From NCBI GenBank assembly GCA_934162655.1, contig CAKPJL010000003.1:1714-65713 (forward strand): a stretch of DNA of 64,000 nt. The letters run 5' to 3'. The DNA comes from an uncultured Clostridia bacterium. GTDB lineage: Bacteria > Bacillota > Clostridia > TANB77 > CAG-465. The notes under the pieces are model-generated. The model saw only the letters and a list, made by a program, of their open reading frames with translations. It made no database searches and was not told where the DNA came from. This document shows, in pieces, positions 42,901 through 61,568 of the stretch (positions within the stretch are counted from its first letter, which is position 1; the number at the start of each line of letters is the position of its first letter). Both the position numbers and the translations under genes were made by a program.

Positions 42901-45019
42901 ATCCAACATTTTCACCATCACATTCATTAGTTATAGTTGAATTATCAGATGTATATTCAAGTCTTGTACATACTTTAAAATCATCATCTTGTGATGGTGG
43001 TGGAGTAGTAGAATAATAATATGTCATTTTAATTTTTTTAACTCCATCTATCCTGCCTGTTGATATTCCAGTAAGTATTCCATCATATCTACCAGAAAAT
43101 GTTTTTGGTTTATAAAGCAACTCACCATCTGCCCCATAAAATTCTATCTTATACTTACCATTATAATTGAAGTTTTCATTTGTACTCTCATCTTGATAAG
43201 AAAAAGTAAGTAGGCTGATTTTCAACTGTGTTTTTATTGTTATTCCTTTTGCTTGATATTTAGCAAGTATATCTGTTGTTCCTTCTTCATCTTTTACTAC
43301 TACTCCATCTCCACCGTCCATTATTTCTACATTATTTCCTTCTCTTGCTATTGGAAGTGGTCTTTTAGTTTTTTCAACAACATGTTCTACTTCAATATTA
43401 ACTTTTTCTTTTGCCTCTGCACTTTCATAAATAAAAGAAACTAACACTGGTTTTTTATTATCTGAATTAATGATTGCGGAAGTTTTTTCTATATCCTCTT
43501 GATCTTTAATTTTAGCACTTAGCTCATCATAAGTTTGGTCTTCTTCACCTTTGTAATACCTTAAACTTAAGTATTTATATATATATCCTTCCTTGTCTAC
43601 TTTCTTTTTAGCATTTACTTCAGATGTATTCATATAAGTAGCCTTAAATTTTTTCCCTTTTAAGAGATTTAATTTATATTCTTCATACTTTTTCTCATTA
43701 TCTGTATTTAAAGAATAATTAGTTGCATCTTCTTTATAATTGTTATCTTTTTTTAATACTGATAATGTTATATACCCATTACCATAATTTATTGCATGTT
43801 CTGGTTGATATATTTTTGGTTTTTCTTGCTTTGGTGCTACTTCTAAGTTTGTTAAGTTTCCATCTTTTAATTCTAGATAATCTACATAGACATGTTTTTT
43901 AACATCATCTTCGAATATTTCATAAGGTATATACAAAAAGTTATCATAATCATTAAGTACTGAATTTCCTCTTTGATAATTAAAGGTATCAGAACTAATC
44001 CCCTTAAGTCCAGCTAGCCAAGTTAAGTTTTTCAATTTACTTTCATAGTCCCCTATTGAATCAATTATCGTCTCTCTAGCTTTTGATAATACACTGTCAG
44101 GTATGTTTTCCTGTTCATAATACCCCTCTAATATGTTTATATTAGAATTTATTTGATTTACAATACTATTAGTATCGTCTTTGAATTTTCCTCCGTATAC
44201 TTTTTCAACAAACTCCGATGCTGTTTTCATCTCTACTCCACCGGTATAAGCAGTTTTAGTTACAAACGAGAACCATATTTTTTTATATTTTTTTCCATCT
44301 ATTTCGACATCTTCTACCCAATTGACCCATCCGTCTTCTGTACTATCATCAAATAATACAATTCTTAAATATCCTTTTGTTATACTATATTTATATATAA
44401 CATTTCCATTCTCACACTTAAAACTACATCTAAAGTCTCCAAAAGAACTTGAATTTGAGACATCTGCCTTATATGATATTACTCCAGAATTTTCACTTTT
44501 AACGATTCTATATTTATCATACTCTTTATGTTTAAAATAATCATATGTAATGTTTTCGCCGTTAATTTCTTTATCGTATACATCTGCATACAAGACATTA
44601 TAATTTCTTTCATTCGTGTATATTTTTAAATTTTTCTCATCATATACATATTGGTTTCCAATTCGATTTGGTATATATATACGTAGATATTCTCCTGGAA
44701 GAACTTCATAAGCATCATTATATAGTGACGTTTTATCTGACTGAAAAACTATTCCAGCGATATCATAAGAACCTGTAAGGCTACCTACTTCATGTGAAAT
44801 TGGAATATATTCACCACGTTTTCCACCATTAGCTATAAATTGTTCATATTCAGCAAGTGAATTTGGACTAGCTTTTACAGATGTATAAAAAATAATGTCT
44901 CTTTCTCCATTATCTTCACTTTGACTTAAATCTGCAACATAATTTAATTTATATGCATATGTATTAGTAAAAAAAATATAGCAAAAACAGAGCATAAGTA
45001 TAATTTTAATTTTTTTCAT
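39911..45019 (-). CDS. Giant secreted protein of unknown function (~1700 aa)
   Basis: ORF 39911..45166. ATG 45019 follows AAAGGTGAT and gives a classical signal peptide MKKIKIILMLCFCYIFFTNTYA|YK. The upstream extension overlaps the preceding gene and its terminator. No domain recognised by eye. Confidence 0.7.
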   Translation of the reverse strand: MKKIKIILMLCFCYIFFTNTYAYKLNYVADLSQSEDNGERDIIFYTSVKASPNSLAEYEQFIANGGKRGEYIPISHEVGSLTGSYDIAGIVFQSDKTSLYNDAYEVLPGEYLRIYIPNRIGNQYVYDEKNLKIYTNERNYNVLYADVYDKEINGENITYDYFKHKEYDKYRIVKSENSGVISYKADVSNSSSFGDFRCSFKCENGNVIYKYSITKGYLRIVLFDDSTEDGWVNWVEDVEIDGKKYKKIWFSFVTKTAYTGGVEMKTASEFVEKVYGGKFKDDTNSIVNQINSNINILEGYYEQENIPDSVLSKARETIIDSIGDYESKLKNLTWLAGLKGISSDTFNYQRGNSVLNDYDNFLYIPYEIFEDDVKKHVYVDYLELKDGNLTNLEVAPKQEKPKIYQPEHAINYGNGYITLSVLKKDNNYKEDATNYSLNTDNEKKYEEYKLNLLKGKKFKATYMNTSEVNAKKKVDKEGYIYKYLSLRYYKGEEDQTYDELSAKIKDQEDIEKTSAIINSDNKKPVLVSFIYESAEAKEKVNIEVEHVVEKTKRPLPIAREGNNVEIMDGGDGVVVKDEEGTTDILAKYQAKGITIKTQLKISLLTFSYQDESTNENFNYNGKYKIEFYGADGELLYKPKTFSGRYDGILTGISTGRIDGVKKIKMTYYYSTTPPPSQDDDFKVCTRLEYTSDNSTITNECDGENVGYYPEECTDYEYVNKTLVVPTDMTFRAQIKAPHYYISDKYGIYQSIEFYYKEIKIAIDSSTPNILQGGYHSAGTCVENGKEVPYDGGYTTSLDGYTVMSDEEKEKAEKKVKKYYDAISRNPELFGNAIIVHVGEKIETEKKSYGSPCNMKTADKTVKYQVFKFLCAKIKVVGFKGFYLSGATINNYDGESTQLIGSNKENVIKEISVSSSGISPDKLLNEIRTRFEYEGVIYDEDGPDYVDNGGYYSTSSGELTSFLNKLYDQPSGNGNRSIGEEWVDDFNSREYDPIKSGELRADGDKYNGERLSIAKVLYKNYFLVFNEKGEKPSNYYGHLRLNAADTEKEDAYNNAVSNSDFSDSDIEGLIQDRNLYESKILRQRCSSAGPDAIQCAEGVKNKIESIINAKSELDDYIRENYAGSEIEQETKSVESQTNTAGVNILNPATMDTPDLKSTEELVSHTIGGEKIYNLQVGVASEVTPKLAQSDNVYGNELTNKERKSYIKYYIYLFNFPIEAYDSESNGWYIKKVQVNNRNSDDESLYDKAGALKFTPTGTNINKNGTNYNTSQVNIDTDRIRVIAVTKNVPTIEEALNYVLRVVINNKNEYFTISKLVCSDKTRLTTNNEQFSILLNLGAKIRYDANYISEVELSRGLTTTNISRVYGFRITDCTDVNYKNVFRKNTNGVNENTGVVYYSGFKILDVFTNSYSSVSNQKNTLPIGPYKHTNSTYVEAPKIGYRISFDLKTSGYYRGYLSDSNQSRKIVILPRLYYISKDGKNFIEDVDAYYKNAAGKYVKLQEATQSQVDLSKTYKDIANGGNILNGYQISFTPNDGYRNVLNLGITSVEDFFTKEKRNLNTSSIVLTHDMMCTNYDGFVQSWYGEYKLPNSTILVKSGETNLNNKLQDGYVGVIFYIGVVERASGRDIVISYNTSDKNVENQTNTTQWDYEGYLGFSTPGSELNGNLSIQLAKGKWSINNDIYQKIKGTVALFDLDNRAASDFD

Positions 45020-45044
45020 TATATCACCTTTTATCACAAATATA

Positions 45045-45073
45045 AGTATATATAAAATCTCAAATAAAATCAA
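45045..45073 (-). promoter_or_regulatory. Sigma-A type promoter for the giant secreted protein gene
   Basis: TTGATT, 17 nt, TATACT on the minus strand, between the upstream terminator and the RBS. Confidence 0.5.
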
Positions 45074-45075
45074 GT

Positions 45076-45110
45076 AAAAAAGACTGAAATATAAAATTTC
45101 AGTCTTTTTT
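45076..45110. terminator. Terminator after the Fn3/C39-like gene
   Basis: Perfect 15-bp stem AAAAAAGACTGAAAT / ATTTCAGTCTTTTTT with a 5-nt loop. Confidence 0.8.
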
Positions 45111-45114
45111 ACTA

Positions 45115-46573: not shown

Positions 46574-46609
46574 GTAAAATAAAAGATAGAAATTTTAACT
46601 TCTATCTTT
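46574..46609 (-). terminator. Terminator closing the Tad-like operon
   Basis: AAAGATAGAA / TTCTATCTTT stem overlapping the stop of 46609..48012, followed by TTTATTTT on the minus strand. Confidence 0.65.
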
Positions 46610-48012
46610 TATTCAATTATAAGTTCTTCATCATTTTTTTGATTTAATGTTATTCCATCTATTTTTTCGTCTATCTTTTGTAAATAGATATTTCCTTCCC
46701 AAACATACATAATAACACTTGATACATTTGGCTTATCAATTACAGTATCTATATAAAACTCATACTTATTTTTGTCATATACAATTACATTCTCATTATT
46801 TTCACTGTCTAAATACAATATATTTTCTTTTGTATCTGAACTTATAATTTCAAATGATAATTTTGTTCTAATTCTATAATTTTCTCCATCATAATACATT
46901 ATTGGTAATTGTGAAACTCCGCTTCCTTTTATTTTTATTTTATTGTCTTTTACATGCTTTACATATTTATCCAAAATTGTAGATTGTGTTGAAAATAGGC
47001 CATATTCTTCTAGTTCTTCTTGCATTTTGGCTTTGTCTATTGTTTCATAATCTATGTTCAAAATTATACTATAATATCTATCAACGATATTAGAAATAGT
47101 AGAATATACACTTCTTTCTTTTACAAATAAGTCAATTGGGGAAATAAATTCTTTTTCATCTTTTACTATTAAGTCTTTTTCGTATGCCTCTTTTGCTACA
47201 TCAAACAAAATATAAGAATACTTATCACTATTAGAAGGTATTTTATCTTCACTTATATTGAATTTTTTTCCTTTTGGTATTAATAGATTATATTGTTTAA
47301 TAATATCACAAGTAAGCTTATTTATTTCTCCTTTATGCATTTTTTTATTTGGATTTATTTTCCCGTTACTATTTTCCAATACTTTTGTTGCAACAAGATC
47401 TGACAATGCATATAATTGCTCAGGAGTAATTTGTGAAATATCACTATAATTTGGATAGACACTGGTATCTAAATTTGCACCTACAAGTTTTACTCTAGCT
47501 TTTGAAAAATACTCTATAAATTCAATAAATGTAATCTTATTTCCTTCATTTTTTTTATTTATTTGTTCTTCTGATATAATGCCATTTTCTACTGCATATT
47601 CAACCCATAATTGATTATCATATTCTTTTTCTATACTGATGAAATTATCTAAATCTACAAGATTTGTAATAGAAGATACAATAATTTTTATTGCTTCTGA
47701 CTTGGTAACACTTTCAAAACTAGTCGATTTAGAATTATTATACATCTGTGATAAGCCATATTTATCCATTTGTTTTGCATAATCATTATATTTAGAATAT
47801 TTTATTACTTTTGCCAAAAATATTATACCTATTATTAGAGCTATGGCAATAATTGCTGATAATACAATTAGTATTAATCTCTTATTTAATAATTTTTTAT
47901 TTTTACCCTCTTTTTTTGGGTTATTTTCTTTTTTATCTTTATTTTCTTTTTTTGCTACACTTTCCTGCTTAACCTTCATATATGCAGGAACTATTTTTTC
48001 ACTATCTGCCAT
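46609..48012 (-). CDS. Hypothetical bitopic membrane protein, last gene of the Tad-like operon
   Basis: 467 aa. Lys-rich cytoplasmic N-tail, TM LILIVLSAIIAIALIIGIIFLA, large extracytoplasmic part. RBS TAGGAGGT overlaps the previous stop. Confidence 0.55.
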   Translation of the reverse strand: MADSEKIVPAYMKVKQESVAKKENKDKKENNPKKEGKNKKLLNKRLILIVLSAIIAIALIIGIIFLAKVIKYSKYNDYAKQMDKYGLSQMYNNSKSTSFESVTKSEAIKIIVSSITNLVDLDNFISIEKEYDNQLWVEYAVENGIISEEQINKKNEGNKITFIEFIEYFSKARVKLVGANLDTSVYPNYSDISQITPEQLYALSDLVATKVLENSNGKINPNKKMHKGEINKLTCDIIKQYNLLIPKGKKFNISEDKIPSNSDKYSYILFDVAKEAYEKDLIVKDEKEFISPIDLFVKERSVYSTISNIVDRYYSIILNIDYETIDKAKMQEELEEYGLFSTQSTILDKYVKHVKDNKIKIKGSGVSQLPIMYYDGENYRIRTKLSFEIISSDTKENILYLDSENNENVIVYDKNKYEFYIDTVIDKPNVSSVIMYVWEGNIYLQKIDEKIDGITLNQKNDEELIIE

Positions 48013-49336: not shown

Positions 49337-49906
49337 CTAAATAGCATAATATCTAGCATCAATTACCTTCCATGCTTCATTTTTAACAAATCCTCCATAA
49401 TTTACAACAATTCTATCTTTTGTAGAAGTTGAAATTATTGAATTAAATAATGCCCCTGCAAGAGTTGTATTAGAATTTTTTAACTTTACATAGAATTGGT
49501 CTCCTTGGTTTAATGTGTACATACCATTTTTTACTTTTTTTACATCAAGCGTTGCGGATTTTGTATCTTGCCCAATAATATCAAAAATATCATCTGTATA
49601 ATCAATTCTATATTGAGTAATATGAAGCGAACTGTTCTCTGGGTCTGGTGTTATTACTTGTCTATGAGCTTCTATTTGAATATCATACAAATTATTTGTA
49701 TTAGAAAGAGCTTGTACAAAATCGTTGTACATTTCTTCATCTAAATATCCATTATTTAAAACCTTTTCCACAAATGTTGTTGTCTTTCGAAGTGCAAGAT
49801 TATATGACATATCATCTTGTCTTTCAAAAAAATTATATACAGGAAACAATACTACAAGTGTAACAAATACTATCATTAATATTATAATACTTAAATTATC
49901 TTTCAT
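49337..49906 (-). CDS. Hypothetical N-terminally anchored protein, paralog of 50825..51592
   Basis: 189 aa. IIILMIVFVTLVVLFPVYNFFERQDDMSYNLALRKTTTFVEKVLNNGYLDEEMYNDFV aligns residue-for-residue with the 255-aa paralog. Shared C-terminal GD.F.V.L.N.N.T.A..LF......S....R...NYGG..KNE. Confidence 0.6.
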   Translation of the reverse strand: MKDNLSIIILMIVFVTLVVLFPVYNFFERQDDMSYNLALRKTTTFVEKVLNNGYLDEEMYNDFVQALSNTNNLYDIQIEAHRQVITPDPENSSLHITQYRIDYTDDIFDIIGQDTKSATLDVKKVKNGMYTLNQGDQFYVKLKNSNTTLAGALFNSIISTSTKDRIVVNYGGFVKNEAWKVIDARYYAI

Positions 49907-49930: not shown

Positions 49931-50395
49931 TTACACATTTATTTTTGCAAGTTCATCTTTGTTTGCTTTTTTTATTAGAATATCTATTTGATACTTTCCA
50001 CTTCCAGAACTAGTAACTTTTTGGTACTTCAAATAATACTTTGAAGCTGGATCTACCAAATTTACAAGTTCATAATATGTAGTTGTATTTGGTATATTAA
50101 ATGATTTTCCATTTTCATCTTGTAAATTTATATTATAGTTATAAACTAAATTTGAATCTTTATCTAAAATATAATTATAATAATATGATATAAGTTGATT
50201 GCCTGTAACTACTCTATATGATGTAGTTGGCACATTCTCAATCAAAGCTTTATCTTCTATTTTCTTTCCGTAATTATATGATGTTTCAGCATAGCTATTA
50301 ACCATATAAAACATTGTTATTGTAGTACTTAGTGCTATTATAAATACAAATATATATGCTGCCATATACATTGCTTCATTAGCATTTTCGCTCAT
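49931..50395 (-). CDS. Pilin-like protein 4 (minor), Tad-like operon
   Basis: 154 aa with RBS GGAGAGGA. MSENANEAMYMAAYIFVFIIALSTTITMFYMV: a short polar leader directly followed by a ~22-aa hydrophobic helix. Confidence 0.5.
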   Translation of the reverse strand: MSENANEAMYMAAYIFVFIIALSTTITMFYMVNSYAETSYNYGKKIEDKALIENVPTTSYRVVTGNQLISYYYNYILDKDSNLVYNYNINLQDENGKSFNIPNTTTYYELVNLVDPASKYYLKYQKVTSSGSGKYQIDILIKKANKDELAKINV

Positions 50396-50410
50396 AACTA
50401 TCCTCTCCTA

Positions 50411-50803
50411 TTATTTTATATCTGTAAAAAATATATTTGCACCATCATCTATTCTTTGACAAGTAACACTAAACTTTCTTTTATAAAAATCAAATTTAGT
50501 CTTGTCGTCTTTTTCCTTTGATAAAATAAACTCTTCTTTTATGATGTTATTATTATAATATACATTTACAATTGCATCATTTTTATATTTATTGTAAGTA
50601 TTAATAAGCTCAAGTCCTGTCATTTCAGTATTATCATACATATCAAAACTAGTAAGTCCTTGCCTTATTGATATATCTGTCTTATCAACCGTTTTGTATA
50701 TATCTCTAAAATAACCAATGACCATAATTATAGAGGAAGTTATAGCAATTGTTACAAGTAAAGATACTGATATCATTATAGCTTTATTTGAAATTTCTGA
50801 CAT
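50411..50803 (-). CDS. Pilin-like protein 3 (minor), Tad-like operon
   Basis: 130 aa with RBS AAAGGAGGA. MSEISNKAIMISVSLLVTIAITSSIIMVIGYF. Confidence 0.5.
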   Translation of the reverse strand: MSEISNKAIMISVSLLVTIAITSSIIMVIGYFRDIYKTVDKTDISIRQGLTSFDMYDNTEMTGLELINTYNKYKNDAIVNVYYNNNIIKEEFILSKEKDDKTKFDFYKRKFSVTCQRIDDGANIFFTDIK

Positions 50804-50824
50804 ATATTTCCTCCTTTAATTATA

Positions 50825-51592
50825 CTAAAAAGCCTTATATTCTTCGTTTTTAATTGTTGCACCATAATTTATATAAACGCGTGGGACCTGAGAAGTTGAA
50901 CTAGAAAAAGTTAGTGCATCAAATAATATTGAAGCAAATGTAATATTTGTGTTTCTTATTATAACTCCAAATTCATCCCCAACAGTCATCGTATATATTG
51001 GTTTTCCATCTTTATCTTTATAATTTAATGGTTTATATGGCATATCTTTTTTATTTATAGCCATATATTCTTTTTCAGTCATTTCGAAATAACTCTTTTG
51101 ATTTACCTGTGCTAAGTAATTTAAAATTTGTTCTTGACCATATATTATATTTGATAATTTATATGTAAGCTCAAATGAATAATTTTTTGTGTCGTATGTA
51201 ATAGTCTTACCATCAAATGTTTTAGCAATTATTCCATTTTTCTCTAAATCTTTGCTTGTGTATTGTGACTCATATATGCTATATTCTAATGTATCAACTA
51301 ATACATTTTTATTATCATACACATTTATAACCGGATTATATGTTTTTGAAATATGCTGAAGCTCAATATCATATGAGTTATTAGTCGCGGCAAGTTCTGA
51401 CACAAATTCATCATACATTTCTTGTGTTAAATAACCCTTTGATTTAACTTGATTAACAAAAGTAGAAGTTATTTTAAGTGCAAGTGTATATGATACATCA
51501 TCTCTTTTTTCAAATGTCATATAAATCGGTAGTATAAAAAATACTAGTGTTGCAAAGATAATAGCAAATATTCTTTGAACAACCTCTTCCAT
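50825..51592 (-). CDS. Hypothetical N-terminally anchored protein, paralog of 49337..49906
   Basis: 255 aa with RBS TAGGAGGA. IFAIIFATLVFFILPIYMTFEKRDDVSYTLALKITSTFVNQVKSKGYLTQEMYDEFV. Confidence 0.6.
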   Translation of the reverse strand: MEEVVQRIFAIIFATLVFFILPIYMTFEKRDDVSYTLALKITSTFVNQVKSKGYLTQEMYDEFVSELAATNNSYDIELQHISKTYNPVINVYDNKNVLVDTLEYSIYESQYTSKDLEKNGIIAKTFDGKTITYDTKNYSFELTYKLSNIIYGQEQILNYLAQVNQKSYFEMTEKEYMAINKKDMPYKPLNYKDKDGKPIYTMTVGDEFGVIIRNTNITFASILFDALTFSSSTSQVPRVYINYGATIKNEEYKAF

Positions 51593-51607
51593 AAATTCCT
51601 CCTAATT

Positions 51608-51976
51608 TTAATCAATTGCTGTAATTTTTATATCTGTTACTGAATCATCTACAACTATTTTAAATTTTTCATTTGGTTTTACAATACTTTTAAATTCATA
51701 AGGTGTATAAGTAGTCTTTCCAACATTTATAGTAATTTTTACTGCACTATTTTGTTCAAAATAGTTTATTAAGTTTATAACATCTGTACCATAAGCATTT
51801 TCTTTTAAAAATATATCTCTTATATAAGAATCATAATTTTCATATAGCTTACTTTGTGAGTTGAGTGAACTTACTCCCTCTTTTGCGGTATTATAATATG
51901 TTAAAACAAGGGAAATAGTAACAATTGCTACTAAAACACTAACTCCAATTGTAATTGCTCTTATAGCATTATCCAT
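51608..51976 (-). CDS. Pilin-like protein 2 (minor), Tad-like operon
   Basis: ORF 51608..51988. The GTG at 51988 lies in the AGGTGGA RBS. ATG 51976 gives MDNAIRAITIGVSVLVAIVTISLVL, parallel to the MDNAQKAIMIGVGLF.. start of the major candidate. Confidence 0.55.
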   Translation of the reverse strand: MDNAIRAITIGVSVLVAIVTISLVLTYYNTAKEGVSSLNSQSKLYENYDSYIRDIFLKENAYGTDVINLINYFEQNSAVKITINVGKTTYTPYEFKSIVKPNEKFKIVVDDSVTDIKITAID

Positions 51977-52012
51977 AAATGTTTCCACCTACCTTTATTT
52001 TGTATATACTTA

Positions 52013-52119
52013 AAAAGAAGTATTTTTTATAAATACTCTATTTTAAATACATACTTCTTTTGTACTTATTTTTTAGTACAAAAGGTATATAACTATATTT
52101 TAGTATAATTATATACCTT
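52013..52119 (-). terminator. Cluster of three hairpins downstream of the major pilin-like gene (attenuator/terminator)
   Basis: 11-bp stem AAGGTATATAA/TTATATACCTT (52082..52119), GTACT..AGTAC (52062..52079), and 9-bp stem AAGAAGTAT/ATACTTCTT (52013..52060) followed by TTT. This is the only gap over 60 nt inside the operon. Confidence 0.5.
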
Positions 52120-52128
52120 AAAAATTAA

Positions 52129-52593
52129 TTATTTAATTCCTTGCTTTTTGAATGAAATACCTACTACTGCATCATTTATTTTTATTAAACTTGCATCATA
52201 CTTTGCAGTTGTAACTATATAATAGCTCATGTCAGAAGTAGATGTTAATTTTCCAACTGCTGGCACATCACTATTAACACTAGTAGATTTTCCGTCAGAA
52301 ATTAATCCACCAAGATTTACTGTTTTACCATTTACATTTGTTAGTTCAATCGCCATTTTAGAGTCACCATGATACTTTTTAACTGAAGCAAGCACTTGTG
52401 AGCCAGTCATAACAGTACCATCATATTCTTGTGTTAATTGCTTTTGTAATTGTGCTGACATAGCAGAAAGTTCACCTGTTGCATTATTTGCAAGTTCTTG
52501 TCCCATACCAGTAACAACCATTACAATTGCTATAATTATGATTGTTATGAAAAGTCCAACACCAATCATAATCGCTTTTTGTGCATTATCCAT
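52129..52593 (-). CDS. Major pilin-like protein candidate, Tad-like operon
   Basis: 154 aa with strong RBS AAGGAGGAAAAAATA. MDNAQKAIMIGVGLFITIIIIAIVMVVTG, then a Ser/Thr/Gly-rich globular part. First structural gene after the platform gene, flanked by hairpins, and visibly less AT-rich than its neighbours. Confidence 0.55.
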   Translation of the reverse strand: MDNAQKAIMIGVGLFITIIIIAIVMVVTGMGQELANNATGELSAMSAQLQKQLTQEYDGTVMTGSQVLASVKKYHGDSKMAIELTNVNGKTVNLGGLISDGKSTSVNSDVPAVGKLTSTSDMSYYIVTTAKYDASLIKINDAVVGISFKKQGIK

Positions 52594-52653: not shown

Positions 52654-54705
52654 TTATAGTGACATAGCACTAAAATATGAAATCATTTGCATTACACTTA
52701 CTATTAGAAGTGGAGCTACAAGATATCCACCAATCAATAATATTAATGGCATAAAGCCTAAAACTTTACCATATGTAACCTTTTTTTGAATAAGTCTTTG
52801 ATTTCCTTCTTTTCTTCTTTCATAGTAAAATCCTCTCTCTGTTTCTAGTTCATCAAACGCATCACGAACTGGAATACGCTCAACTGCTGATTGAAGTTGT
52901 TCTACTATTCTTTGGAAATCTTTATATGGTACAGATTCTTTTAATTCTTCTAGTGCTTCATATGCTCCAGCCTCATAATTATTTAGAGCTGTTGCAATAG
53001 GTTCTTTAAATGCATATGAAAATCTACATAACCATTCAAGTATTGTTTGAACATCAATTCTATCAATATACATAAGCATAAGTATTATTGACTGGAATTG
53101 CATAATTTCATTTTCTTTTTCCATCTCTCTAATCTTATTTCTTATAACAAGAACAATAGATGGAATATAATATGCTATTACGCCAATTACTATTGAAATT
53201 AATACTTGCCAATATTTAACGTAAGAATTTTTAACCTTTTGTATTTTATTATACACTCTATCTACTTCATCTTGATCAACTTGTCCAGTTGCAGAGTCAG
53301 TAAATCTAAGCTCCAAATCTTCACGTGTTACATTTTTATTTTTATATTCATCGATATATGTTTTATCTCTTTCATTTAAAGCTTTAGCAGCCCTTTCTTG
53401 TTCTGCTGACAGCTTACCAAACGATAAGAATTCATCGCTTATTGCTGTATAGACAGAATTAAAATCAATGTATTGTATATTAAACATAAGTATCATAGAA
53501 AGTACAAAACCAAGGAACGCTGCCACAAGCTTATTTACATATAACCATTCAATTGTAAGATATGCATTTGTATTTTTAATAAGTTCTGTATCTTTTCTAT
53601 ATTTTCTTGTATGCTCTTTTGGTTTAAATGCATCTACTAGCATCTTACCAAATTGAGTTCTATAAACTTTATCTTGCCATCTCACACTTGATACTCTATC
53701 AAATTTTATTTCTTCCGAATCTTCTTTAATTATACGAAGCATTAAATAAGAAACAAATATTGATATAATTATTAAGGATTGCATTACAAATCCTATACTA
53801 CTATTGTAAAAATTAGCAAGAGACGGGAAATTTGACTCTGCCCATGATTGCAATGGCTTAATTGCTACAAGTGGCACAACTGCTATTATTGTCAAACTTC
53901 TAAACATGTAATTTATCTTATCACGCTTTAATATTTCAAGATATATATCACTTAAAATATTATTTAAGTTTCTAAGGTATACGGATGTACCATCAACTTT
54001 TCTATCCCCTAGTTCTAGTGTTAAGTATGATACACCTGCAAATAATTTTAGAAATCTATTTGGGGCTGTATCATAATATTTTTCAAGTTCAGCCTCTGGA
54101 TTTTCAGACATCATTGCTTCTTTTATTCTTTTTAATTGAGGAACAATTTCTTTTTCGCCTAAATCATCCATTGCCGCATCAAAAGCTTCTTCAATCATAC
54201 CATGTTCATGGAATGCATGTCTTATGGAAGTGAATGCTTCTGGTAGCTGTCTTAATATCTTTAAAGATACTGAATTTATATTTAAATCTATAATTTTTTC
54301 TGCTACAACCAAAATACCAACTAAACATATAAGTGACATATATAGATCATTAACTAAGTTAACAAGTGTAAATGAAGCTACAAATATGAAAAATAGCATA
54401 ATCATCATAAGTTTTCCTGTATTTTTTCTTATTTCATATTCTGTATAATCATTTGCCATTTCCATTTTTAGTCTAGTTTTTTTAGTATAGTATTTTATTA
54501 TTGGCATTTTAACAAATACCAAATAAGCCGATTGATAAATTCTATCTAGAGTATCTTTTGATAGTTTTTTATCTTTTACTTTTAATTGATCCTTCTCATA
54601 TAGTGTTTTATTTTTAGAATAGTTTTTCTTAGTTCTAAAATAAAATATAAGTGTTGCTGAAAGGATCAAAGCAGCAAATACTACTAATATTATTATAAAT
54701 ACCAT
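52654..54705 (-). CDS. Fused TadB-TadC-like platform protein (two T2SS-F-type modules)
   Basis: 683 aa polytopic protein with two cytoplasmic helical modules. These are LRQLPEAFTSIRHAFHEHGMIEEAFDAAMDDLGEKEIVPQLKRI.. and MQFQSIILMLMYIDRIDVQTILEWLCRFSYAFKEPIATALNNYEAGAYEALEELK.. Each is followed by TM helices. Position directly after the ATPase gene. Confidence 0.6.
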   Translation of the reverse strand: MVFIIILVVFAALILSATLIFYFRTKKNYSKNKTLYEKDQLKVKDKKLSKDTLDRIYQSAYLVFVKMPIIKYYTKKTRLKMEMANDYTEYEIRKNTGKLMMIMLFFIFVASFTLVNLVNDLYMSLICLVGILVVAEKIIDLNINSVSLKILRQLPEAFTSIRHAFHEHGMIEEAFDAAMDDLGEKEIVPQLKRIKEAMMSENPEAELEKYYDTAPNRFLKLFAGVSYLTLELGDRKVDGTSVYLRNLNNILSDIYLEILKRDKINYMFRSLTIIAVVPLVAIKPLQSWAESNFPSLANFYNSSIGFVMQSLIIISIFVSYLMLRIIKEDSEEIKFDRVSSVRWQDKVYRTQFGKMLVDAFKPKEHTRKYRKDTELIKNTNAYLTIEWLYVNKLVAAFLGFVLSMILMFNIQYIDFNSVYTAISDEFLSFGKLSAEQERAAKALNERDKTYIDEYKNKNVTREDLELRFTDSATGQVDQDEVDRVYNKIQKVKNSYVKYWQVLISIVIGVIAYYIPSIVLVIRNKIREMEKENEIMQFQSIILMLMYIDRIDVQTILEWLCRFSYAFKEPIATALNNYEAGAYEALEELKESVPYKDFQRIVEQLQSAVERIPVRDAFDELETERGFYYERRKEGNQRLIQKKVTYGKVLGFMPLILLIGGYLVAPLLIVSVMQMISYFSAMSL

Positions 54706-54714
54706 AAAACACTA

Positions 54715-56607
54715 TCACCCCCAAGCTGTATCAACAAAGTTATCAAATGCTCTCATGTCTTCTGGTGACATATTCTCACGCATTGCTTTAATATTTGCCT
54801 CAGATATTGGATGTGTGAATACATATTCACCATCACGCCATTCAATTATGTTATGATAAGTATAATTGTTATTTTGTGTCATATGTTTAAAGTATTCAAC
54901 AGAATTGTCCATAAATTTATCTAACTTTTGCTCTATTGTTTTTTGTTCTCTATAATCATTGTTATATTCAAATTTCTGTTCTATTGGAACACATTCAGTT
55001 ATTCTTTCAATGTAACGGGTACCATCAACACCTCTTTTTAGATGTATATCGAAGTTTATAACTTGTACAACCTGTACTTCTGCAACATTTTCAGAATTAA
55101 ACATTCCAATTTTTAATAGTGAGTTTCTAAGTGCAGTTATAAGGTTAGGGAAAGTTTTAGCATGGTGTGTAAAAAGTGTGAATTTAGACGCAACCTGTGC
55201 CATCTGAATCATCCAAGCAGCAACCGGATCAGTTGCAACCTCTCCTAGGATATTTACACCACCATCTGTCTTTTTTTGTACATCTAGACCCATTTGTCCA
55301 GTTATTGTTTCAGTTTCACGAAGTGATAGTATATTGTGATTTGGATATATTTTTCTTAAATGTAATTCAAATGCTGTTTCTTGCACACGAATTGTAATTG
55401 TTGGATATAAGTATTTCATTATAGCCATAAGAAGTGTTGTCTTACCACATCCCTGTTCACCAGTAATTGCTGTAACACGAGCACCAGTTATTAAATATTT
55501 TAATAATTCTATTACTTTTTCTTTTCCTTTATGTACTAATAATTGTTCGGCAGATATTAATGTTGGTGGAGCAAACTTTCTTACAAAGAATGCCCAAGAT
55601 TCTGCAAAGTTTGGTCTTAATACAACTACACGCGAACCATCTTTCATCTCATTGATTTTAAAACCAACAGACTCAGAAAGTTGTCCTGGATTATTATATT
55701 TATAAATATTTTGACAGACTCTTTTAAGCTCTGCTTCGCTACCAAATGATAAGAAAGATAAGTATGTAGCTTTACCCTTGTAAAATATCCATACAGAGTC
55801 GTATGACATAGGCATCTTTTTACCATTCATCTGTTCTAAATAATCTTCCATTCCTGTTACTTGATCCAAGAATGAAGGAGGAATACCAGATACACCACCA
55901 GATACTCCATCAATATTCATATCACGAATATCATCTACAACACTATAACCTTTATACCCTTGATATACACGTTGAACAATAATTTCTAGTTTATCATCAA
56001 ATGTTAACATATCAGGTGATATTTCTTTATCAAATATATCATTAATTTCCTCTGCTGTTATTACATAAGAAGAAACCTCCGGATCAAATTCATATTTTGG
56101 AACATCAAGATTATATTTAGTTATAAGTTGTGTAAGTGCTTCAGCCTTATATTCTTTTTTGTAAAAATGAAGTAATATTTCAAACTTATCTTGTGGGGTT
56201 AGTGCCTCTGTATCATCAAAAGGTATTGCATAATTTGCATTAATCCCATTTACTCCATAATTATTTTTAAGTAAGTCAAACATCAAAGTTTTAACATACT
56301 TTTTATCGCTCTTATCTGCATAACCAGCACCTTTTAATGCTTTTTTTAATGCATATTTTACATTTCTTCTTCTTTCAAATTCTTCTTCTGAAAGTGCTAA
56401 ATCGTACAAATTCATACGAGTAATTTCATCAAATTGTTTCTTTATAAATTCTTGCATTTTTTGTATGCTATACTTATCTCTTTCACGAGCCACAATCACA
56501 TTATCTGTTTCTTTTACTGTTGAGCCTTTAATTCTATAAAAGAAGTATCCAACAACAAAAGCAAGTAAAACAACAATAAGCACAATGTTAAGAACAAATG
56601 CAACCAT
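54715..56607 (-). CDS. CpaF/TadA-like secretion ATPase with N-terminal transmembrane anchor
   Basis: 630 aa. MVAFVLNIVLIVVLLAFVVGYFFY TM helix. DIRDMNIDGVSG, KDGSRVVVLRPNFAESWAFFVRKF, Walker A ITGEQGCGKTTLLMAI, IRVQETAFEL, ILGEVATDPVA, THHAKT. Confidence 0.75.
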   Translation of the reverse strand: MVAFVLNIVLIVVLLAFVVGYFFYRIKGSTVKETDNVIVARERDKYSIQKMQEFIKKQFDEITRMNLYDLALSEEEFERRRNVKYALKKALKGAGYADKSDKKYVKTLMFDLLKNNYGVNGINANYAIPFDDTEALTPQDKFEILLHFYKKEYKAEALTQLITKYNLDVPKYEFDPEVSSYVITAEEINDIFDKEISPDMLTFDDKLEIIVQRVYQGYKGYSVVDDIRDMNIDGVSGGVSGIPPSFLDQVTGMEDYLEQMNGKKMPMSYDSVWIFYKGKATYLSFLSFGSEAELKRVCQNIYKYNNPGQLSESVGFKINEMKDGSRVVVLRPNFAESWAFFVRKFAPPTLISAEQLLVHKGKEKVIELLKYLITGARVTAITGEQGCGKTTLLMAIMKYLYPTITIRVQETAFELHLRKIYPNHNILSLRETETITGQMGLDVQKKTDGGVNILGEVATDPVAAWMIQMAQVASKFTLFTHHAKTFPNLITALRNSLLKIGMFNSENVAEVQVVQVINFDIHLKRGVDGTRYIERITECVPIEQKFEYNNDYREQKTIEQKLDKFMDNSVEYFKHMTQNNNYTYHNIIEWRDGEYVFTHPISEANIKAMRENMSPEDMRAFDNFVDTAWG

Positions 56608-56633: not shown

Positions 56634-57446
56634 CTAACTTTCTTTAATCTTAGTAATATCTAGTATCCTTTGCACAATTTCACTTGTAGCAACTATAAGT
56701 TTTCCATTGTAATCATTTTTATCAGCATTTAAGTTCTTATAGAAGAAGTCTATAATATCTCCGTCATTGCATGCATCTGAAAAAATTGCATTATGTGGAA
56801 TAGTATATATTGGCTCTTTTATCTTAAATCTTGATGCAATATTAAATGCAGTGTATTTAGATTTATCATCATAGTCTCCAAGTACATAAATTTTTTGTTT
56901 ATCTTTTAGTGTTTCATCACTGTCTATTTTCTTAAAGAAATCTGTTAGTTTTACTATATCTTGATTTAAAACACAAACTACAACATCTGAGTCGGCTAAA
57001 ACATTATCAATGTCATCTTTTTTACCTTTTGGCAAATCGAGTAAAACCAAATCATATAACTCATCTGCTTTTCTAATTAAATATGTTAAACTCTGCATTA
57101 TTTGATTATACATTTCTATATCATTTGAATTAATTCCATAAAGTATATCAAGTCTATTTTTTAATACAGGTTTTGCATAGTTTTGTATAAAATCAGGTGT
57201 TAACTTATTTGAAGTTATAAGTCTTGAAAGTGCTGATATTCCTATATTAGAGCTTTCAAAAGTTCCACTTGTAACAAGTTCATCATAAGGTGTATATGCA
57301 GATTCCACTTTTCTTGAATTAAAGTTTGTTTGAAGTAAAATGCTTGTTACTTTATGTGTTATTCCCATAAGAGTGGATACGGCTAAAATGGCGTGTGTAT
57401 TTCCTGCCATTGCTTTATCCATACTCCAAAATGTTACTTTTGCCAT
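56634..57446 (-). CDS. ParA/MinD-fold TadZ-like protein lacking a P-loop (copy 2)
   Basis: 270 aa. The Walker A position reads FWSMDKAMAGNTHAILAVSTL. Walker B-like YDLVLLDLPKG is retained. Confidence 0.45.
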   Translation of the reverse strand: MAKVTFWSMDKAMAGNTHAILAVSTLMGITHKVTSILLQTNFNSRKVESAYTPYDELVTSGTFESSNIGISALSRLITSNKLTPDFIQNYAKPVLKNRLDILYGINSNDIEMYNQIMQSLTYLIRKADELYDLVLLDLPKGKKDDIDNVLADSDVVVCVLNQDIVKLTDFFKKIDSDETLKDKQKIYVLGDYDDKSKYTAFNIASRFKIKEPIYTIPHNAIFSDACNDGDIIDFFYKNLNADKNDYNGKLIVATSEIVQRILDITKIKES

Positions 57447-57447
57447 C

Positions 57448-58161
57448 TTAGTCCCTCCTTCTTTTTATTTCGTTTATTACTTGTTTTGCCTTTACATCTT
57501 CTAATATTTCTGCAACCATATCAGCAATTGCTGATATAAAGTACTTAGTATGTTTTTTTACATCTATTATTCCGCTTAATTGAGAATCCATATTTACCAT
57601 TTTATCTTGATCATCATTTGGAATTTCATATTCATTTTCATTCCATTCAATTCCATATGCTGTAAGGCTATCAACAAAGTATTTTTCAGATGCACGTGAC
57701 ATATAATTTTTATAAATGACTCTTGTCATTTTTATTTTTTCTTCACTTGCATTATTAAATATTTTAAATCCATTTGCAATCTCTTTATTTTTTTGAACTG
57801 ATAACACTGTTGATTCTATAAAGAAATATAGTTTATCAAATCCTCTGGCCCTAAAGAATTCGTATGCTTTTGGACTGTCGATATCAATTATTGCAAAATC
57901 ATATAGTCCCATATTAATTCCACGTTCATTCATATAATTATCTATTTCATGGATACTTCCAAATCCTACTGCAAAGTCTATGCCGTTATATTGTGTAACA
58001 TATGACTTTTCAATGCTCATTGATGGTATTACATATTTTAACTTTCTATCAAGCGTTGCATCTATTACTAAAACGGATTTACCCATTATATTTAATGTCT
58101 TTGCTAAATTTATTGCAAAATCATATTTTTCGGTATATCCCATTAACCCTATTACTTTCAT
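57448..58161 (-). CDS. ParA/MinD-fold TadZ-like protein lacking a P-loop (copy 1)
   Basis: 237 aa. The Walker A position reads IGLMGYTEKYDFAINLAKTL. SVLVIDATLD and YDFAIIDIDSP are retained. Confidence 0.45.
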   Translation of the reverse strand: MKVIGLMGYTEKYDFAINLAKTLNIMGKSVLVIDATLDRKLKYVIPSMSIEKSYVTQYNGIDFAVGFGSIHEIDNYMNERGINMGLYDFAIIDIDSPKAYEFFRARGFDKLYFFIESTVLSVQKNKEIANGFKIFNNASEEKIKMTRVIYKNYMSRASEKYFVDSLTAYGIEWNENEYEIPNDDQDKMVNMDSQLSGIIDVKKHTKYFISAIADMVAEILEDVKAKQVINEIKRRRD

Positions 58162-60435: not shown

Positions 60436-60469
60436 TTAAAAAATGATATGACATTTACTGCATATCATT
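60436..60469 (-). terminator. Terminator-like hairpin between 60465..61553 and corA
   Basis: AATGATATG / CATATCATT 9-bp stem overlapping the TGA stop, followed by TTTTTT. It sits only about 15 nt before the corA RBS. Confidence 0.55.
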
Positions 60470-61553: not shown

Positions 61554-61568
61554 ATAATATCACCTCAC

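What the first reader, a model, noticed from the sequence alone, without database searches (positions are those of the whole stretch)
49931..52593. A family of four pilin-like proteins sharing a novel leader/helix signature (MDNAxKAIxIGVG...)
The N-termini are as follows: MDNAQKAIMIGVGLFITIIIIAIVMVV (154 aa), MDNAIRAITIGVSVLVAIVTISLVL (122 aa after start correction), MSEISNKAIMISVSLLVTIAITSSIIMV (130 aa) and MSENANEAMYMAAYIFVFIIALSTTITM (154 aa). All four share a 5-8-residue polar leader ending in N-x-x-[KRE]-A. It is followed directly by a ~22-residue hydrophobic helix and a 100-130-aa globular part. This is the architecture of type IV pilins. It lacks the bacterial G|F-T-L-I-E signature, the Flp G|xxxxEY signature and the TadE/F signature. 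The A-[IM]-x-I-G-V-G-L-F-I pattern is more reminiscent of archaeal pilin and archaellin helices. It is open whether and where these are cleaved (after K/R, before A?).
Basis: partly seen in the sequence, partly recalled or inferred. Interest (0 to 1): 0.7.

Follow-up and report, generated by a model that had tools for sequence, protein, structure and literature searches.

The report
Novel pilins of divergent Tad-like machine
Four small related membrane-anchored proteins lie just downstream of a highly diverged Tad-type pilus motor in a gut Clostridia genome, and are most likely the subunits of an undescribed pilus that is widespread in Firmicutes and invisible to current annotation.

Summary
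The four ORFs exist as described and form one paralogous family (profile-profile E from 5e-17 to 6e-5). It is not chance: the first, a 154-aa protein, has over 800 unnamed homologues. Its first 20 residues (MDNAQKAIMIGVGLFITIII) are almost invariant, while the globular part is hypervariable.

AlphaFold2 predicts a pilin-type lollipop: helix 3-57 plus an alpha/beta head. No pilin family in Pfam, NCBIfam or PDB matches.

The genes belong to a 13-gene operon conserved in 75 gut Clostridia species. It also occurs on Bacillales megaplasmids and a C. botulinum plasmid. The operon encodes:
- a CpaB-like SAF protein;
- a TadZ-like ParA-type protein;
- a membrane-anchored CpaF-like ATPase;
- a fused TadB-TadC-like platform, shown only by broadened profiles (E=5e-9 and 7e-5);
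- three further proteins with N-terminal helices.

Best reading: one major and three minor subunits of a divergent Tad-related type IV filament. The pilins are globular, not Flp-like. They carry an archaeal-style [KR]-A signal in place of G at -1.

No prepilin peptidase was found nearby, so cleavage remains untested. I found no description in the searchable literature. I rate it a new variant of a known kind, moderately to highly interesting.

The parts
58194..59291 (-). CpaB/RcpC-like protein: N-terminal TM helix plus SAF domain. First gene of the operon.
   Evidence: Pfam SAF E=2.8e-6 and ChapFlgA E=3e-7. Profile versus CpaB set E=9.8e-13. Present in 75 of 82 related loci.
57448..58161 (-). 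[not shown]
56634..57446 (-). [not shown]
   Evidence: Profile versus TadZ set E=5.1e-6 over 198 columns. Weak Pfam MipZ hit. PGAP names the Thermobacillus orthologue ParA.
54715..56607 (-). CpaF/TadA-like secretion ATPase (630 aa) with a conserved N-terminal TM helix and an N-terminal extension of about 270 aa.
   Evidence: Best and only PDB relatives are CpaF: E=1e-7 for the single sequence and 2e-6 for the profile, residues 274-544. Pfam T2SSE hit is only E=0.0028, below threshold. Identity is 74-93% across species. Plasmid orthologues are named TadA or CpaF by PGAP.
52654..54705 (-). Polytopic platform protein (683 aa, about 8 TM helices): a fused pair of TadB/TadC-like (T2SSF-like) modules.
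   Evidence: No Pfam, NCBIfam or PDB hit. A broadened profile versus a TadB/TadC set gives E=5.2e-9 for the N-half (1-329) and E=7e-5 for the C-half (391-679). The TadB versus TadC control gives 2.1e-8.
52129..52593 (-). pil1: putative major subunit (154 aa), MDNAQKA|IMIGVGLFITIII...
   Evidence: Strong RBS. 802 homologues. Residues 1-20 have entropy about 0.07 bits, against 1.2-2.8 bits for the head. There are 2-3 tandem copies in 15 of 72 loci. AF2 gives helix 3-57 plus an alpha/beta head, pLDDT 77.7.
51990..52128 (-). Structured intergenic region after pil1: three AT-rich hairpins, two of them followed by U runs. Candidate partial terminator or mRNA stabiliser.
   Evidence: MFE -42.7 kcal/mol, z=-8.55 against shuffles. 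The sequence was read directly. The consensus terminator scan missed it because it has fewer than 3 GC pairs.
51608..51976 (-). pil2: paralogue (122 aa), MDNAIRA|ITIGVSVLV...
   Evidence: Family profile versus pil1 E=4e-13. Position -2 is R or K in 45/45 and -1 is A or S in 45/45.
50825..51592 (-). X255: protein with an N-terminal helix (255 aa), MEEVVQR-IFAIIF..FFILPIY..EKRDDVSYTLALK. A different family from pil1-4.
   Evidence: Paralogue of X189: BLASTP E=2e-25 and profiles E=1.3e-44. Present in 76 of 82 loci. No link to TadE or DUF4320.
50411..50803 (-). pil3: paralogue (130 aa), MSEISNKA|IMISVSLLV...
   Evidence: Family profile versus pil1 E=5.4e-17 over 124 columns. Position -1 is A in 45/45.
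49931..50395 (-). pil4: most divergent paralogue (154 aa), MSENANEA|MYMAAYIFV...
   Evidence: Family profile versus pil2 E=5.3e-8, versus pil3 1.4e-6 and versus pil1 6e-5. Position -2 is acidic or polar (E, Q, D) rather than K/R.
49337..49906 (-). X189: protein with an N-terminal helix (189 aa), MKDNLS-IIILMIVF..FPVYNFFERQDDMSYNLAL. Present in all versions of the system, including the plasmid ones.
48022..49299 (-). X425: protein with an N-terminal helix (425 aa), MKITDFAMIFIAITLPIII... Present in the Clostridia loci and in the Bacillales plasmid versions.
   Evidence: Found in 70 of 82 loci. Orthologues on pTHECO01 and pBpOF4-01.
46609..48012 (-). X467: bitopic membrane protein with a Lys-rich cytoplasmic N-terminus and a large external domain. 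Last broadly conserved gene of the cluster.
   Evidence: Found in 60 of 82 loci. TM helix near residue 40.
39911..45016 (-). Giant Sec-signal surface protein. Accessory or cargo candidate. Its C-terminal region is related to the proteins PGAP names DUF5704 that follow the plasmid-borne loci.
   Evidence: Residues 1351-1599 match the pTHECO01 DUF5704 protein at 32% identity, E=2e-15. Homologues occur in 25 of 82 loci. DUF5704 follows the locus on pTHECO01 and pBpOF4-01.

Best explanation
The four proteins are the pilin-type subunits of a previously undescribed, strongly diverged relative of the Tad (type IVc) and archaeal-type type IV filament machines. The 154-aa protein is the major subunit. 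The 122-, 130- and 154-aa proteins are minor subunits.

Proposed mechanism, by analogy with type IV filaments (inferred, not shown):
1. Each subunit inserts into the membrane N-in/C-out through its roughly 22-residue hydrophobic helix.
2. The short polar leader is probably removed at the cytoplasmic face after the conserved [KR]-A, an archaeal-style class III site. The peptidase is encoded elsewhere, or is unknown.
3. The membrane-anchored CpaF-like ATPase, acting through the fused TadB-TadC-like platform, extracts subunits from the membrane. It stacks them through their invariant N-terminal helices into a filament whose surface is the hypervariable head.
4. The minor paralogues and the three other helix-anchored proteins (255, 189 and 425 aa) prime or cap the fibre.
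5. The CpaB-like and TadZ-like proteins build and position the machine.

The likely role is adhesion or surface display.

Shown here: paralogy, conservation, the predicted lollipop fold, and homology of the ATPase, platform, CpaB-like and TadZ-like parts.

Inferred: filament formation, the cleavage site, the roles of the minor subunits, and function.
For: - Paralogy of the four proteins.
- Lollipop model: helix 3-57, head pLDDT 81-92.
- Filament-subunit evolutionary pattern. Entropy is 0.07 bits for residues 1-20 against 1.2-2.8 bits in the head. Tandem duplications occur in 15 of 72 loci. A strong RBS precedes pil1 and a very stable hairpin region follows it.
- The 13-gene synteny is conserved in 75 species-level genomes.
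- The same core is on Bacillales megaplasmids and a C. botulinum plasmid. Their major subunits (MSTNASKA-LYFG.., MDSVTKA-IIFG.., MGENARKA-LYMA..) align full length to the family, E=4e-12 and 1.5e-15.
- Position -2 is K/R and -1 is A or S, both conserved. Archaeal pilins with predicted R-A| and D-A| sites are tabulated (PMC4371748).
Against: - No sequence or fold match to any known pilin. Pfam, NCBIfam and PDB sequence searches were negative. Foldseek's best hit was E=0.1, to NTF2-like proteins.
- The N-terminal helix of the model has low pLDDT (52-65).
- No A24 prepilin peptidase was found in the 64-kb window, in 17 kb of extra contig, within 10 kb either side of 80 loci, or on the whole 149-kb pTHECO01.
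- The leader is invariant, which is unusual for a discarded leader.
- G at -1 and E at +5 are absent.
- Only pil1 was modelled.
- There are no expression or proteomic data.
Confidence: 0.7

Rival explanations
1. Pseudopilus or secretion machine. The same proteins form only a short piston-like or cell-wall-spanning fibre. Its job is to export or display the large DUF5704, SLH or repeat surface proteins encoded downstream, as T2SS pseudopilins do, rather than to form a long adhesive pilus.
For: Giant Sec-signal surface proteins follow the locus consistently. DUF5704 plus an SLH protein follow it on pTHECO01 and pBpOF4-01. The window's 1751-aa protein is related to them. Flg_new-repeat proteins follow it in L001-L003. 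There are many minor subunits relative to one major subunit.
Against: The hypervariable head and the tandem duplication of the major subunit suggest an exposed, abundant fibre. The downstream proteins have ordinary Sec signal peptides. The Big1751 homologue is present in only 25 of 82 loci.
Confidence: 0.15
2. Ordinary uncleaved bitopic membrane proteins. They would be structural or regulatory parts of a membrane complex driven by the ATPase and would not polymerise. The pilin likeness would be only a signal-anchor helix plus a small ectodomain.
For: No peptidase was found. The leader is invariant. No pilin family or fold match exists. There are weak recurrent sub-threshold hits to the MacB periplasmic domain in 38 of 107 homologues.
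Against: The near-total invariance of the helix against a hypervariable ectodomain is what filament subunits show. So are the four paralogues plus duplications, and the position directly after a TadA-TadB/C pair. The other parts of the machine are homologous to pilus-assembly parts.
Confidence: 0.12
3. Nothing new: an ordinary Tad/Flp locus that the annotation tools merely score badly.
For: PGAP already names plasmid orthologues of the ATPase as TadA or CpaF. Homologies to CpaB, TadZ and TadB/C were recovered.
Against: - The subunits are 120-170 aa with a globular head and lack G|xxxxEY. No Flp or TadE signal appears in 107 homologues.
- Canonical Firmicute Tad pilins on C. botulinum pCLJ carry KKGG|LS leaders.
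- The platform is one fused gene, whereas split tadB/tadC is described as a systematic trait of Tad and Epd systems (PMC6668835).
- The ATPase is only 27% identical to true CpaF, over residues 268-543, and has a TM anchor.
- The Pfam T2SSE and T2SSF models fail.
Confidence: 0.05

Closest known systems
Tad / Flp (type IVc) pilus system: CpaB/RcpC, TadZ/CpaE, TadA/CpaF, TadB, TadC, Flp, TadE/F/G
   Different: - The major subunit is 150-170 aa with a globular head, not a 50-80-aa Flp.
- There is no G|xxxxEY motif and no TadE signature.
- The platform is one fused 683-aa gene instead of split tadB and tadC.
- The ATPase carries a TM anchor and an extension of about 270 aa.
- No TadV was found.
- Pfam models for T2SSE and T2SSF do not reach threshold.
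Archaeal type IV pili (Epd, Aap, Ups, haloarchaeal PilA) with class III signal peptides cut by PibD, FlaK or EppA
   Same: Both have a short polar leader ending in a charged residue plus a small residue, here [KR]-A. R-A| and D-A| sites are tabulated for archaeal pilins (PMC4371748). Neither has E at +5. Both have a globular head after the helix. Most archaeal T4P have a platform with two T2SSF modules in one gene (PMC6668835). TadZ-like partners link Tad to archaeal systems.
   Different: No sequence homology to archaeal pilins or archaellins was detected. G at +4 would break the FlaFind-style hydrophobic run (from memory of the rule; not tested). No PibD or FlaK homologue was seen. The host is bacterial (Firmicutes), and the ATPase is closer to CpaF than to the archaeal GspE-like ATPase (E=1e-7 against 0.1).
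Canonical Tad-like loci of Firmicutes (e.g. C. botulinum pCLJ, Thermoanaerobacterium pMU3262)
   Same: Same phylum, often plasmid-borne, with CpaB, ParA-like, ATPase and T2SSF genes followed by small helix-anchored proteins.
   Different: Their subunits start ...KKGG|LS and include DUF4320 proteins. Their ATPases share only about 25% identity with this one. The profiles show no link to pil1-4, X189, X255 or X425.

Membership tests
Bacterial type IV pilin (prepilin-type N-terminal cleavage/methylation domain; N_methyl PF07963 / TIGR02532) | Leader ending in G at -1, hydrophobic +1 to about +21 with E at +5, detectable by the N_methyl model. | tested here: not met
   Position -1 is A in 107/107 homologues and +5 is V. 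No N_methyl hit in Pfam or NCBIfam for any of the four, or for 107 homologues.
Bacterial type IV pilin | Lollipop fold: a long N-terminal alpha-helix of about 50 residues packed on a beta-sheet head. | tested here: met
   The AF2 model of pil1 has helix 3-57, a short helix, and a 6-7-stranded beta region with pLDDT 81-92. Foldseek found no significant pilin match, however. Only pil1 was modelled.
Flp/Fap pilin (PF04964) | Protein of about 50-80 aa with the G|xxxxEY processing motif and no globular domain. | tested here: not met
   The proteins are 122-154 aa, have no EY motif and give no Pfam hit.
TadE/TadF/TadG pseudopilins (PF07811) and DUF4320 | TadE-like N-terminal domain detectable by profile. 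| tested here: not met
   No Pfam hit. hhalign of pil1-4, X189, X255 and X425 against small TadE and DUF4320 sets gave E>0.01 throughout. The reference sets were small, so sensitivity is limited.
Archaeal class III signal-peptide pilins and archaellins | A [KRDE]-[GA] cleavage motif directly before the hydrophobic helix. | tested here: met
   pil1 has K-A, pil2 R/K-A(S), pil3 K/R-A and pil4 E/Q-A. Archaeal precedents are RA|, DA| and KG| (PMC4371748). This is a motif-level match only.
Archaeal class III signal-peptide pilins and archaellins | Processing by an A24-family peptidase (PibD, FlaK or EppA). | not testable with these tools
   No A24-like gene was found in the window, the contig flanks, 80 loci or pTHECO01. 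The rest of the genomes could not be searched. The canonical Tad loci fetched for comparison also lacked one nearby.
Archaeal class III signal-peptide pilins and archaellins | Sequence homology to Arch_flagellin or archaeal pilin families. | tested here: not met
   No hit in Pfam or PDB, even at E<=1 to 10.
Type IV filament machine (TFF superfamily) | PilB/TadA-family hexameric secretion ATPase. | tested here: met
   CpaF E=1e-7 for the single sequence and 2e-6 for the profile. The Walker A motif GEQGCGKTT is invariant.
Type IV filament machine (TFF superfamily) | PilC/TadB/TadC (T2SSF) platform protein. | tested here: met
   This is met only with broadened profiles: N-half E=5.2e-9, C-half E=7e-5, control 2.1e-8. 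Pfam, PDB and single-sequence comparisons were negative. The AF2 model was too poor to use.
Type IV filament machine (TFF superfamily) | Dedicated prepilin peptidase. | tested here: inconclusive
   None was found in or near the locus. It could be encoded elsewhere.
Tad (type IVc) system specifically | Two separate platform genes (tadB and tadC), each with one T2SSF domain, and a short Flp-type major pilin (PMC6668835). | tested here: not met
   There is a single fused 683-aa platform gene in all 81 loci that have it. The major subunit is 150-170 aa.
Tad (type IVc) system specifically | The accessory proteins TadZ/CpaE and CpaB/RcpC. | tested here: met
   [not shown]

The most novel reading that the evidence does not exclude
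The locus is a distinct, Firmicutes-wide lineage of the type IV filament superfamily that branches beside Tad, not within it. It has an unsplit platform, globular non-Flp pilins and a membrane-anchored motor. Its subunits are matured in a non-canonical way. Either an unrecognised peptidase cuts after [KR]-A, or the invariant 7-residue leader is never removed. The second case would be the first type IV-like filament assembled without an A24 prepilin peptidase.
Probability: 0.25. Interest if true: 0.85.

Novelty: new variant of a known kind. Interest (0 to 1): 0.62.

Why it matters
Type IV filaments are among the best-studied prokaryotic surface machines. Even so, this system is invisible to the standard models: every gene but the SAF protein lacks a significant Pfam hit, and nearly all homologues are unnamed.

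It is nevertheless common:
- It occurs in at least 75 species-level gut Clostridia genomes from humans, rabbits, ruminants and chickens.
- One platform variant was seen on 292 contigs.
- It is carried on megaplasmids of Paenibacillus, Thermobacillus, Alkalihalophilus, Sporosarcina and Cytobacillus, and on a C. botulinum plasmid.

If the subunits form a pilus, this gives a candidate colonisation or adhesion organelle for a large block of uncultured gut Firmicutes. It also gives a horizontally mobile adhesion module in Bacillales that is linked to GGDEF cyclases.

In evolutionary terms, it combines features that the current scenario separates. Its ATPase, TadZ and CpaB are Tad-type. Its unsplit platform and its globular pilins with an [KR]-A signal are archaeal-type. 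It could therefore inform how Tad arose from archaeal pili.

The unresolved maturation step makes a concrete question testable: is A24 cleavage truly universal for type IV filaments?

Tried and rejected
1. Direct family assignment of the four proteins. Pfam, NCBIfam, PDB sequence search (single sequence and profile) and a Pfam scan of all 107 homologues gave nothing significant. The recurrent sub-threshold His1_capsid hits (49 of 107, best E=0.0022) and MacB_PCD hits are treated as hydrophobic-helix noise.
2. Foldseek of the pil1 model against PDB gave no significant hit. The best was NTF2-like, E=0.1, TM about 0.2.
3. Platform identification by easy routes failed: Pfam on four divergent orthologues, the PDB profile, and hhalign against single TadB and TadC sequences (E about 0.3). 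The AF2 model had pLDDT 55.8, so its Foldseek hits were meaningless. The internal N/C repeat was only E=0.0099. Only broadened profiles on both sides worked.
4. The search for a prepilin peptidase found none. It used a GxGD-motif and multi-TM scan of 3180 ORFs in all loci, Pfam on window candidates, extra contig flanks and the full pTHECO01 annotation. Signal peptidase I genes lie near two versions (window 61569-62774; lepB on the C. botulinum plasmid). I rejected these as the maturase because the motif lies before the hydrophobic segment, not after it, and they are not conserved with the locus (1 of 82 loci).
5. The G(-1) prepilin-like proteins elsewhere in the window (36858-39692 and 27688-28101) were considered as extra subunits. 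I rejected this because no such protein occurs in any of the 80 related loci.
6. Linking X189, X255 and X425 to TadE or DUF4320 gave no significant signal.
7. Literature searches for the motif strings, DUF5704, pBpOF4-01 and novel Firmicute type IV filaments found no description.


Full report
OBSERVATION. The window is low-GC (about 27%) with nearly all genes on the minus strand.

The start correction of the second ORF is backed by independent gene calls on the same public contig (122 aa). It is also backed by an AGGTGG 9 nt before the ATG and by orthologue N-termini. The first gene has a strong AAGGAGG 9 nt before its ATG.

Two small corrections apply. The strict pattern N-x-x-[KRE]-A fits three of the four proteins. 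The interval also contains an unrelated 255-aa gene.

IS IT MORE THAN CHANCE? Yes. I collected orthologues of each of the four from about 75 related genomes and compared the family profiles. All pairs match: 1v2 E=4e-13, 1v3 5e-17, 1v4 6e-5, 2v3 3e-13, 2v4 5e-8 and 3v4 1.4e-6 (earlier single-sequence tests). The four are therefore one paralogous family.

The 154-aa protein has 802 homologues in the 90%-clustered protein collection. Nearly all are unnamed or 'hypothetical protein [Clostridia bacterium]'. A profile search finds 1024 clusters at 50% identity.

Across 107 homologues that are only 45-65% identical overall, residues 1-20 have a column entropy of about 0.07 bits. The globular part runs at 1.2-2.8 bits with many indels. 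Position -2 is K and -1 is A in 107/107. In paralogue groups 2 and 3, -2 is K or R (Q in 3 of 45 for group 3) and -1 is A or S. Group 4 has E/Q/D at -2. G at +4 is nearly invariant in all four.

FOLD. AlphaFold2 with the 107-sequence alignment gives mean pLDDT 77.7. The model has one helix spanning residues 3-57. This is followed by a strand, a short helix (64-74) and six further strands. The head is confident (81-92) and the N-terminal helix is not (52-65), as is usual for monomeric pilin models.

However, Foldseek against PDB found no significant match (best NTF2-like, E=0.1). Sequence and profile searches against PDB found nothing. Pfam and NCBIfam found no pilin family (N_methyl, Flp, TadE, archaellin), not even weakly, in any of 107 homologues. 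The head is therefore either a new fold variant or too diverged to recognise.

CONTEXT. The four genes are part of a conserved minus-strand operon. In order it encodes:
- a SAF-domain protein (59291-58194);
- a 630-aa ATPase;
- a 683-aa polytopic membrane protein;
- pil1, then a structured spacer, then pil2;
- X255, pil3, pil4, X189, X425 and X467.

A scan of one genome per GTDB species with the N-terminal signature returned 75 loci. All come from gut-derived Clostridia MAGs or 'Clostridium sp. CAG:921/1219/465'. BLAST of the window proteins against ORFs of all fetched loci shows the same 13 genes in the same order almost everywhere. Identity is 74-93% for the ATPase, 55-86% for the platform and 33-61% for the pilin-like proteins.

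X255 and X189 are paralogues of each other (E=2e-25; profiles 1.3e-44). Like X425, they begin with a short polar leader and a hydrophobic helix containing a conserved Pro (..FFILPIY....FPLYNYFERQDDMSYNLALK, MKITDFALIF..LPIII). The locus therefore has seven helix-anchored small or medium proteins, not four.

IDENTITY OF THE MACHINE. The ATPase's only significant PDB relatives are CpaF structures (E=1e-7 for residues 274-544; profile 2e-6). Pfam T2SSE reaches only E=0.0028. It carries a conserved N-terminal TM helix and an extension of about 270 aa.

The 683-aa protein resisted every simple test: Pfam, PDB, single-sequence hhalign and a poor AF2 model. I then broadened both profiles. The platform set had 32 sequences, including Bacillales and C. 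botulinum versions. The reference set had eight TadB/TadC proteins from Rhizobium, Arthrobacter, Thermoanaerobacterium and C. botulinum pCLJ. With these, the N-half (1-329) aligned end-to-end to TadB/C with E=5.2e-9 (probability 95.9%). The C-half (391-679) aligned with E=7e-5. The TadB-versus-TadC control gave 2.1e-8. It is therefore a fused double T2SSF-like platform.

WIDER DISTRIBUTION. tblastn of the ATPase against plasmids found full-length homologues at 37-59% identity on several replicons. These include megaplasmids of Thermobacillus composti (pTHECO01), Alkalihalophilus pseudofirmus OF4 (pBpOF4-01), Paenibacillus, Cohnella, Sporosarcina, Cytobacillus and Lysinibacillus. A C. botulinum plasmid also carries one. 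True Rhizobium CpaF is only 27% identical, over residues 268-543.

PGAP names these ATPases TadA, CpaF or 'T2SS/T4P/T4SS family', and names the neighbours 'SAF domain' or 'ParA'. Everything else is hypothetical.

The plasmid loci have a reduced subunit set: a pil1-like protein, one more small protein, an X189-like protein and (shown for the two Bacillales plasmids) an X425-like protein. On the two Bacillales plasmids these are followed by an SLH protein, a DUF5704 giant protein and a GGDEF cyclase. The C. botulinum version also has a GGDEF gene downstream.

Their major subunits start MSTNASKA-LYFGASLL, MDSVTKA-IIFGASLL and MGENARKA-LYMAVGVF. The two tested align full length to the gut family (E=4e-12 and 1.5e-15). 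The window's 1751-aa protein shares a C-terminal region with the pTHECO01 DUF5704 protein (E=2e-15).

MATURATION. No A24-type prepilin peptidase was found in any of the following:
- the window;
- a GxGD and multi-TM scan of all ORFs within 10 kb either side of 80 loci;
- 17 kb of additional contig flanks;
- the whole pTHECO01 annotation.

This is weak evidence. The four canonical Tad loci I fetched for comparison also show no peptidase within 6-8 kb, and Tad models allow tadV to be encoded apart (PMC6668835).

At motif level, [KR]-A followed by I/L resembles archaeal class III signal peptides. A review table lists predicted processing sites RA|QI (EpdA), RA|LS, RA|VS and DA|VS for in-vivo-characterised archaeal pilins (PMC4371748).

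By contrast, canonical Firmicute Tad subunits on C. botulinum pCLJ start ..KKGG|LS.

One observation remains unexplained. The whole 7-residue leader is as invariant as the helix. That fits either a very specific recognition step or a leader that is retained.

OTHER ANATOMY. The 146-nt pil1-pil2 spacer folds into three AT-rich hairpins (-42.7 kcal/mol, z=-8.55). Two are followed by U runs. This is consistent with a partial terminator or stabiliser that boosts expression of the major subunit relative to the downstream genes. That reading is an inference. In 15 of 72 loci, pil1 is present in 2-3 tandem copies.

INTERPRETATION. The most economical explanation (confidence about 0.7) is that pil1 is the major subunit and pil2-4 are minor subunits of a divergent Tad-related type IV filament.

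The main rivals are:
- a short pseudopilus that serves surface-protein export or display (0.15);
- non-polymerising bitopic proteins (0.12);
- an ordinary Tad locus (0.05).

The ordinary-Tad reading is contradicted on two counts. The subunits are not Flp-like. The platform is fused, whereas split tadB/tadC and short pilins are described as systematic traits of the Tad and Epd clade (PMC6668835).

The system works like a Tad or archaeal-type pilus. It fails the membership tests for bacterial type IV pilins, Flp, TadE and crown Tad. It meets those for the TFF superfamily on the ATPase and platform, with the peptidase unresolved.

NOVELTY. I found no description in the searchable literature. I searched for the motif strings, DUF5704, the plasmid names and several topic combinations. 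Absence from that library is not proof of absence. I rate the locus a new variant of a known kind.

The most novel reading still open has probability about 0.25. It holds that this is a sister lineage of Tad with an ancestral unsplit platform, whose pilins mature non-canonically or not at all.

Noticed in passing
window 36858-39692 (-) and 27688-28101 (-): A 944-aa protein with Listeria-Bacteroides (Flg_new) repeats starts MKKG|VSLITLIVTIVVIIILSG. A 137-aa protein starts MIKKNG|VSLIILVITIIVIIILSG. Both are canonical G(-1) prepilin-like N-termini without E at +5. This is a different pilin class in the same genome. It implies a G-specific prepilin peptidase somewhere, and possibly a giant pilin-anchored adhesin. 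No such protein occurs in any of the 80 related loci.
   Followed up: partly
window 23042-26453 (-) and 9974-11869 (-): Genes resembling a type IV secretion or conjugation system: a weak VirB6/TrbL-like protein with about 5 TM helices, a T4SS_pilin (PF18895, E=1e-6) and a VirD4/TraG-type coupling protein. A second coupling-protein gene lies at 9974-11869. They sit among housekeeping genes (dnaX, recR, ileS, gyrA).
   Followed up: partly
window 60465-63501 (-): An S26 signal-peptidase domain is fused behind about seven TM helices (61569-62774). It is followed by a DUF5305 protein (60465-61553) and preceded by a small secreted protein (62956-63501). This may be a SipW/TasA-like fibre module. It lies next to the pilus locus only in this genome (1 of 82 loci).
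   Followed up: no
window 54715-56607 (-): The CpaF-like ATPase has a conserved N-terminal TM helix and an N-terminal extension of about 270 aa that true CpaF lacks. It is unusually conserved (74-93% identity between species whose pilins are 33-61% identical). As far as I recall, a membrane-anchored secretion ATPase is unusual in this superfamily.
   Followed up: partly
window 52654-54705 (-), residues 162-170 of the product: An R-H-x-x-H-x-H-G-M motif (RHAFHEHGM) in the first cytoplasmic domain of the platform is invariant in the gut Clostridia set. It is conserved as RHQYHQHGM on the Thermobacillus plasmid. It could be a metal site. Its function is unknown.
   Followed up: no
L083 23998-25146, L084 22966-23970, L086 22367-23407; window 28801-29874: Each plasmid-borne version of the locus is followed within a few genes by a GGDEF diguanylate cyclase. 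Two also have an HD-domain phosphohydrolase nearby (downstream of the GGDEF gene on pTHECO01, upstream of the locus on the C. botulinum plasmid). This hints at c-di-GMP control. The window has a GGDEF gene about 10 kb further downstream, not adjacent.
   Followed up: partly
window 51990-52128 (-): The pil1-pil2 spacer forms an exceptionally stable AT-rich multi-hairpin structure (-42.7 kcal/mol, z=-8.55). The consensus terminator scan missed it.
   Followed up: yes
N-terminal 1-49 of pil1 homologues (A2): Sub-threshold Pfam hits to the His1 spindle-virus capsid protein family recur in 49 of 107 homologues (best E=0.0022). This is probably similarity between hydrophobic helices. It was not examined structurally.
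   Followed up: no
window 39911-45166 (-) and 45115-46446 (-): The 1751-aa ORF overlaps the upstream 443-aa gene (FN3 plus a weak Peptidase_C39-like region). It most likely starts at the internal Met (MKKIKIILML.., a Sec signal) at 45016. A long AT-rich hairpin at 45113-45073 lies between the two genes.
   Followed up: partly
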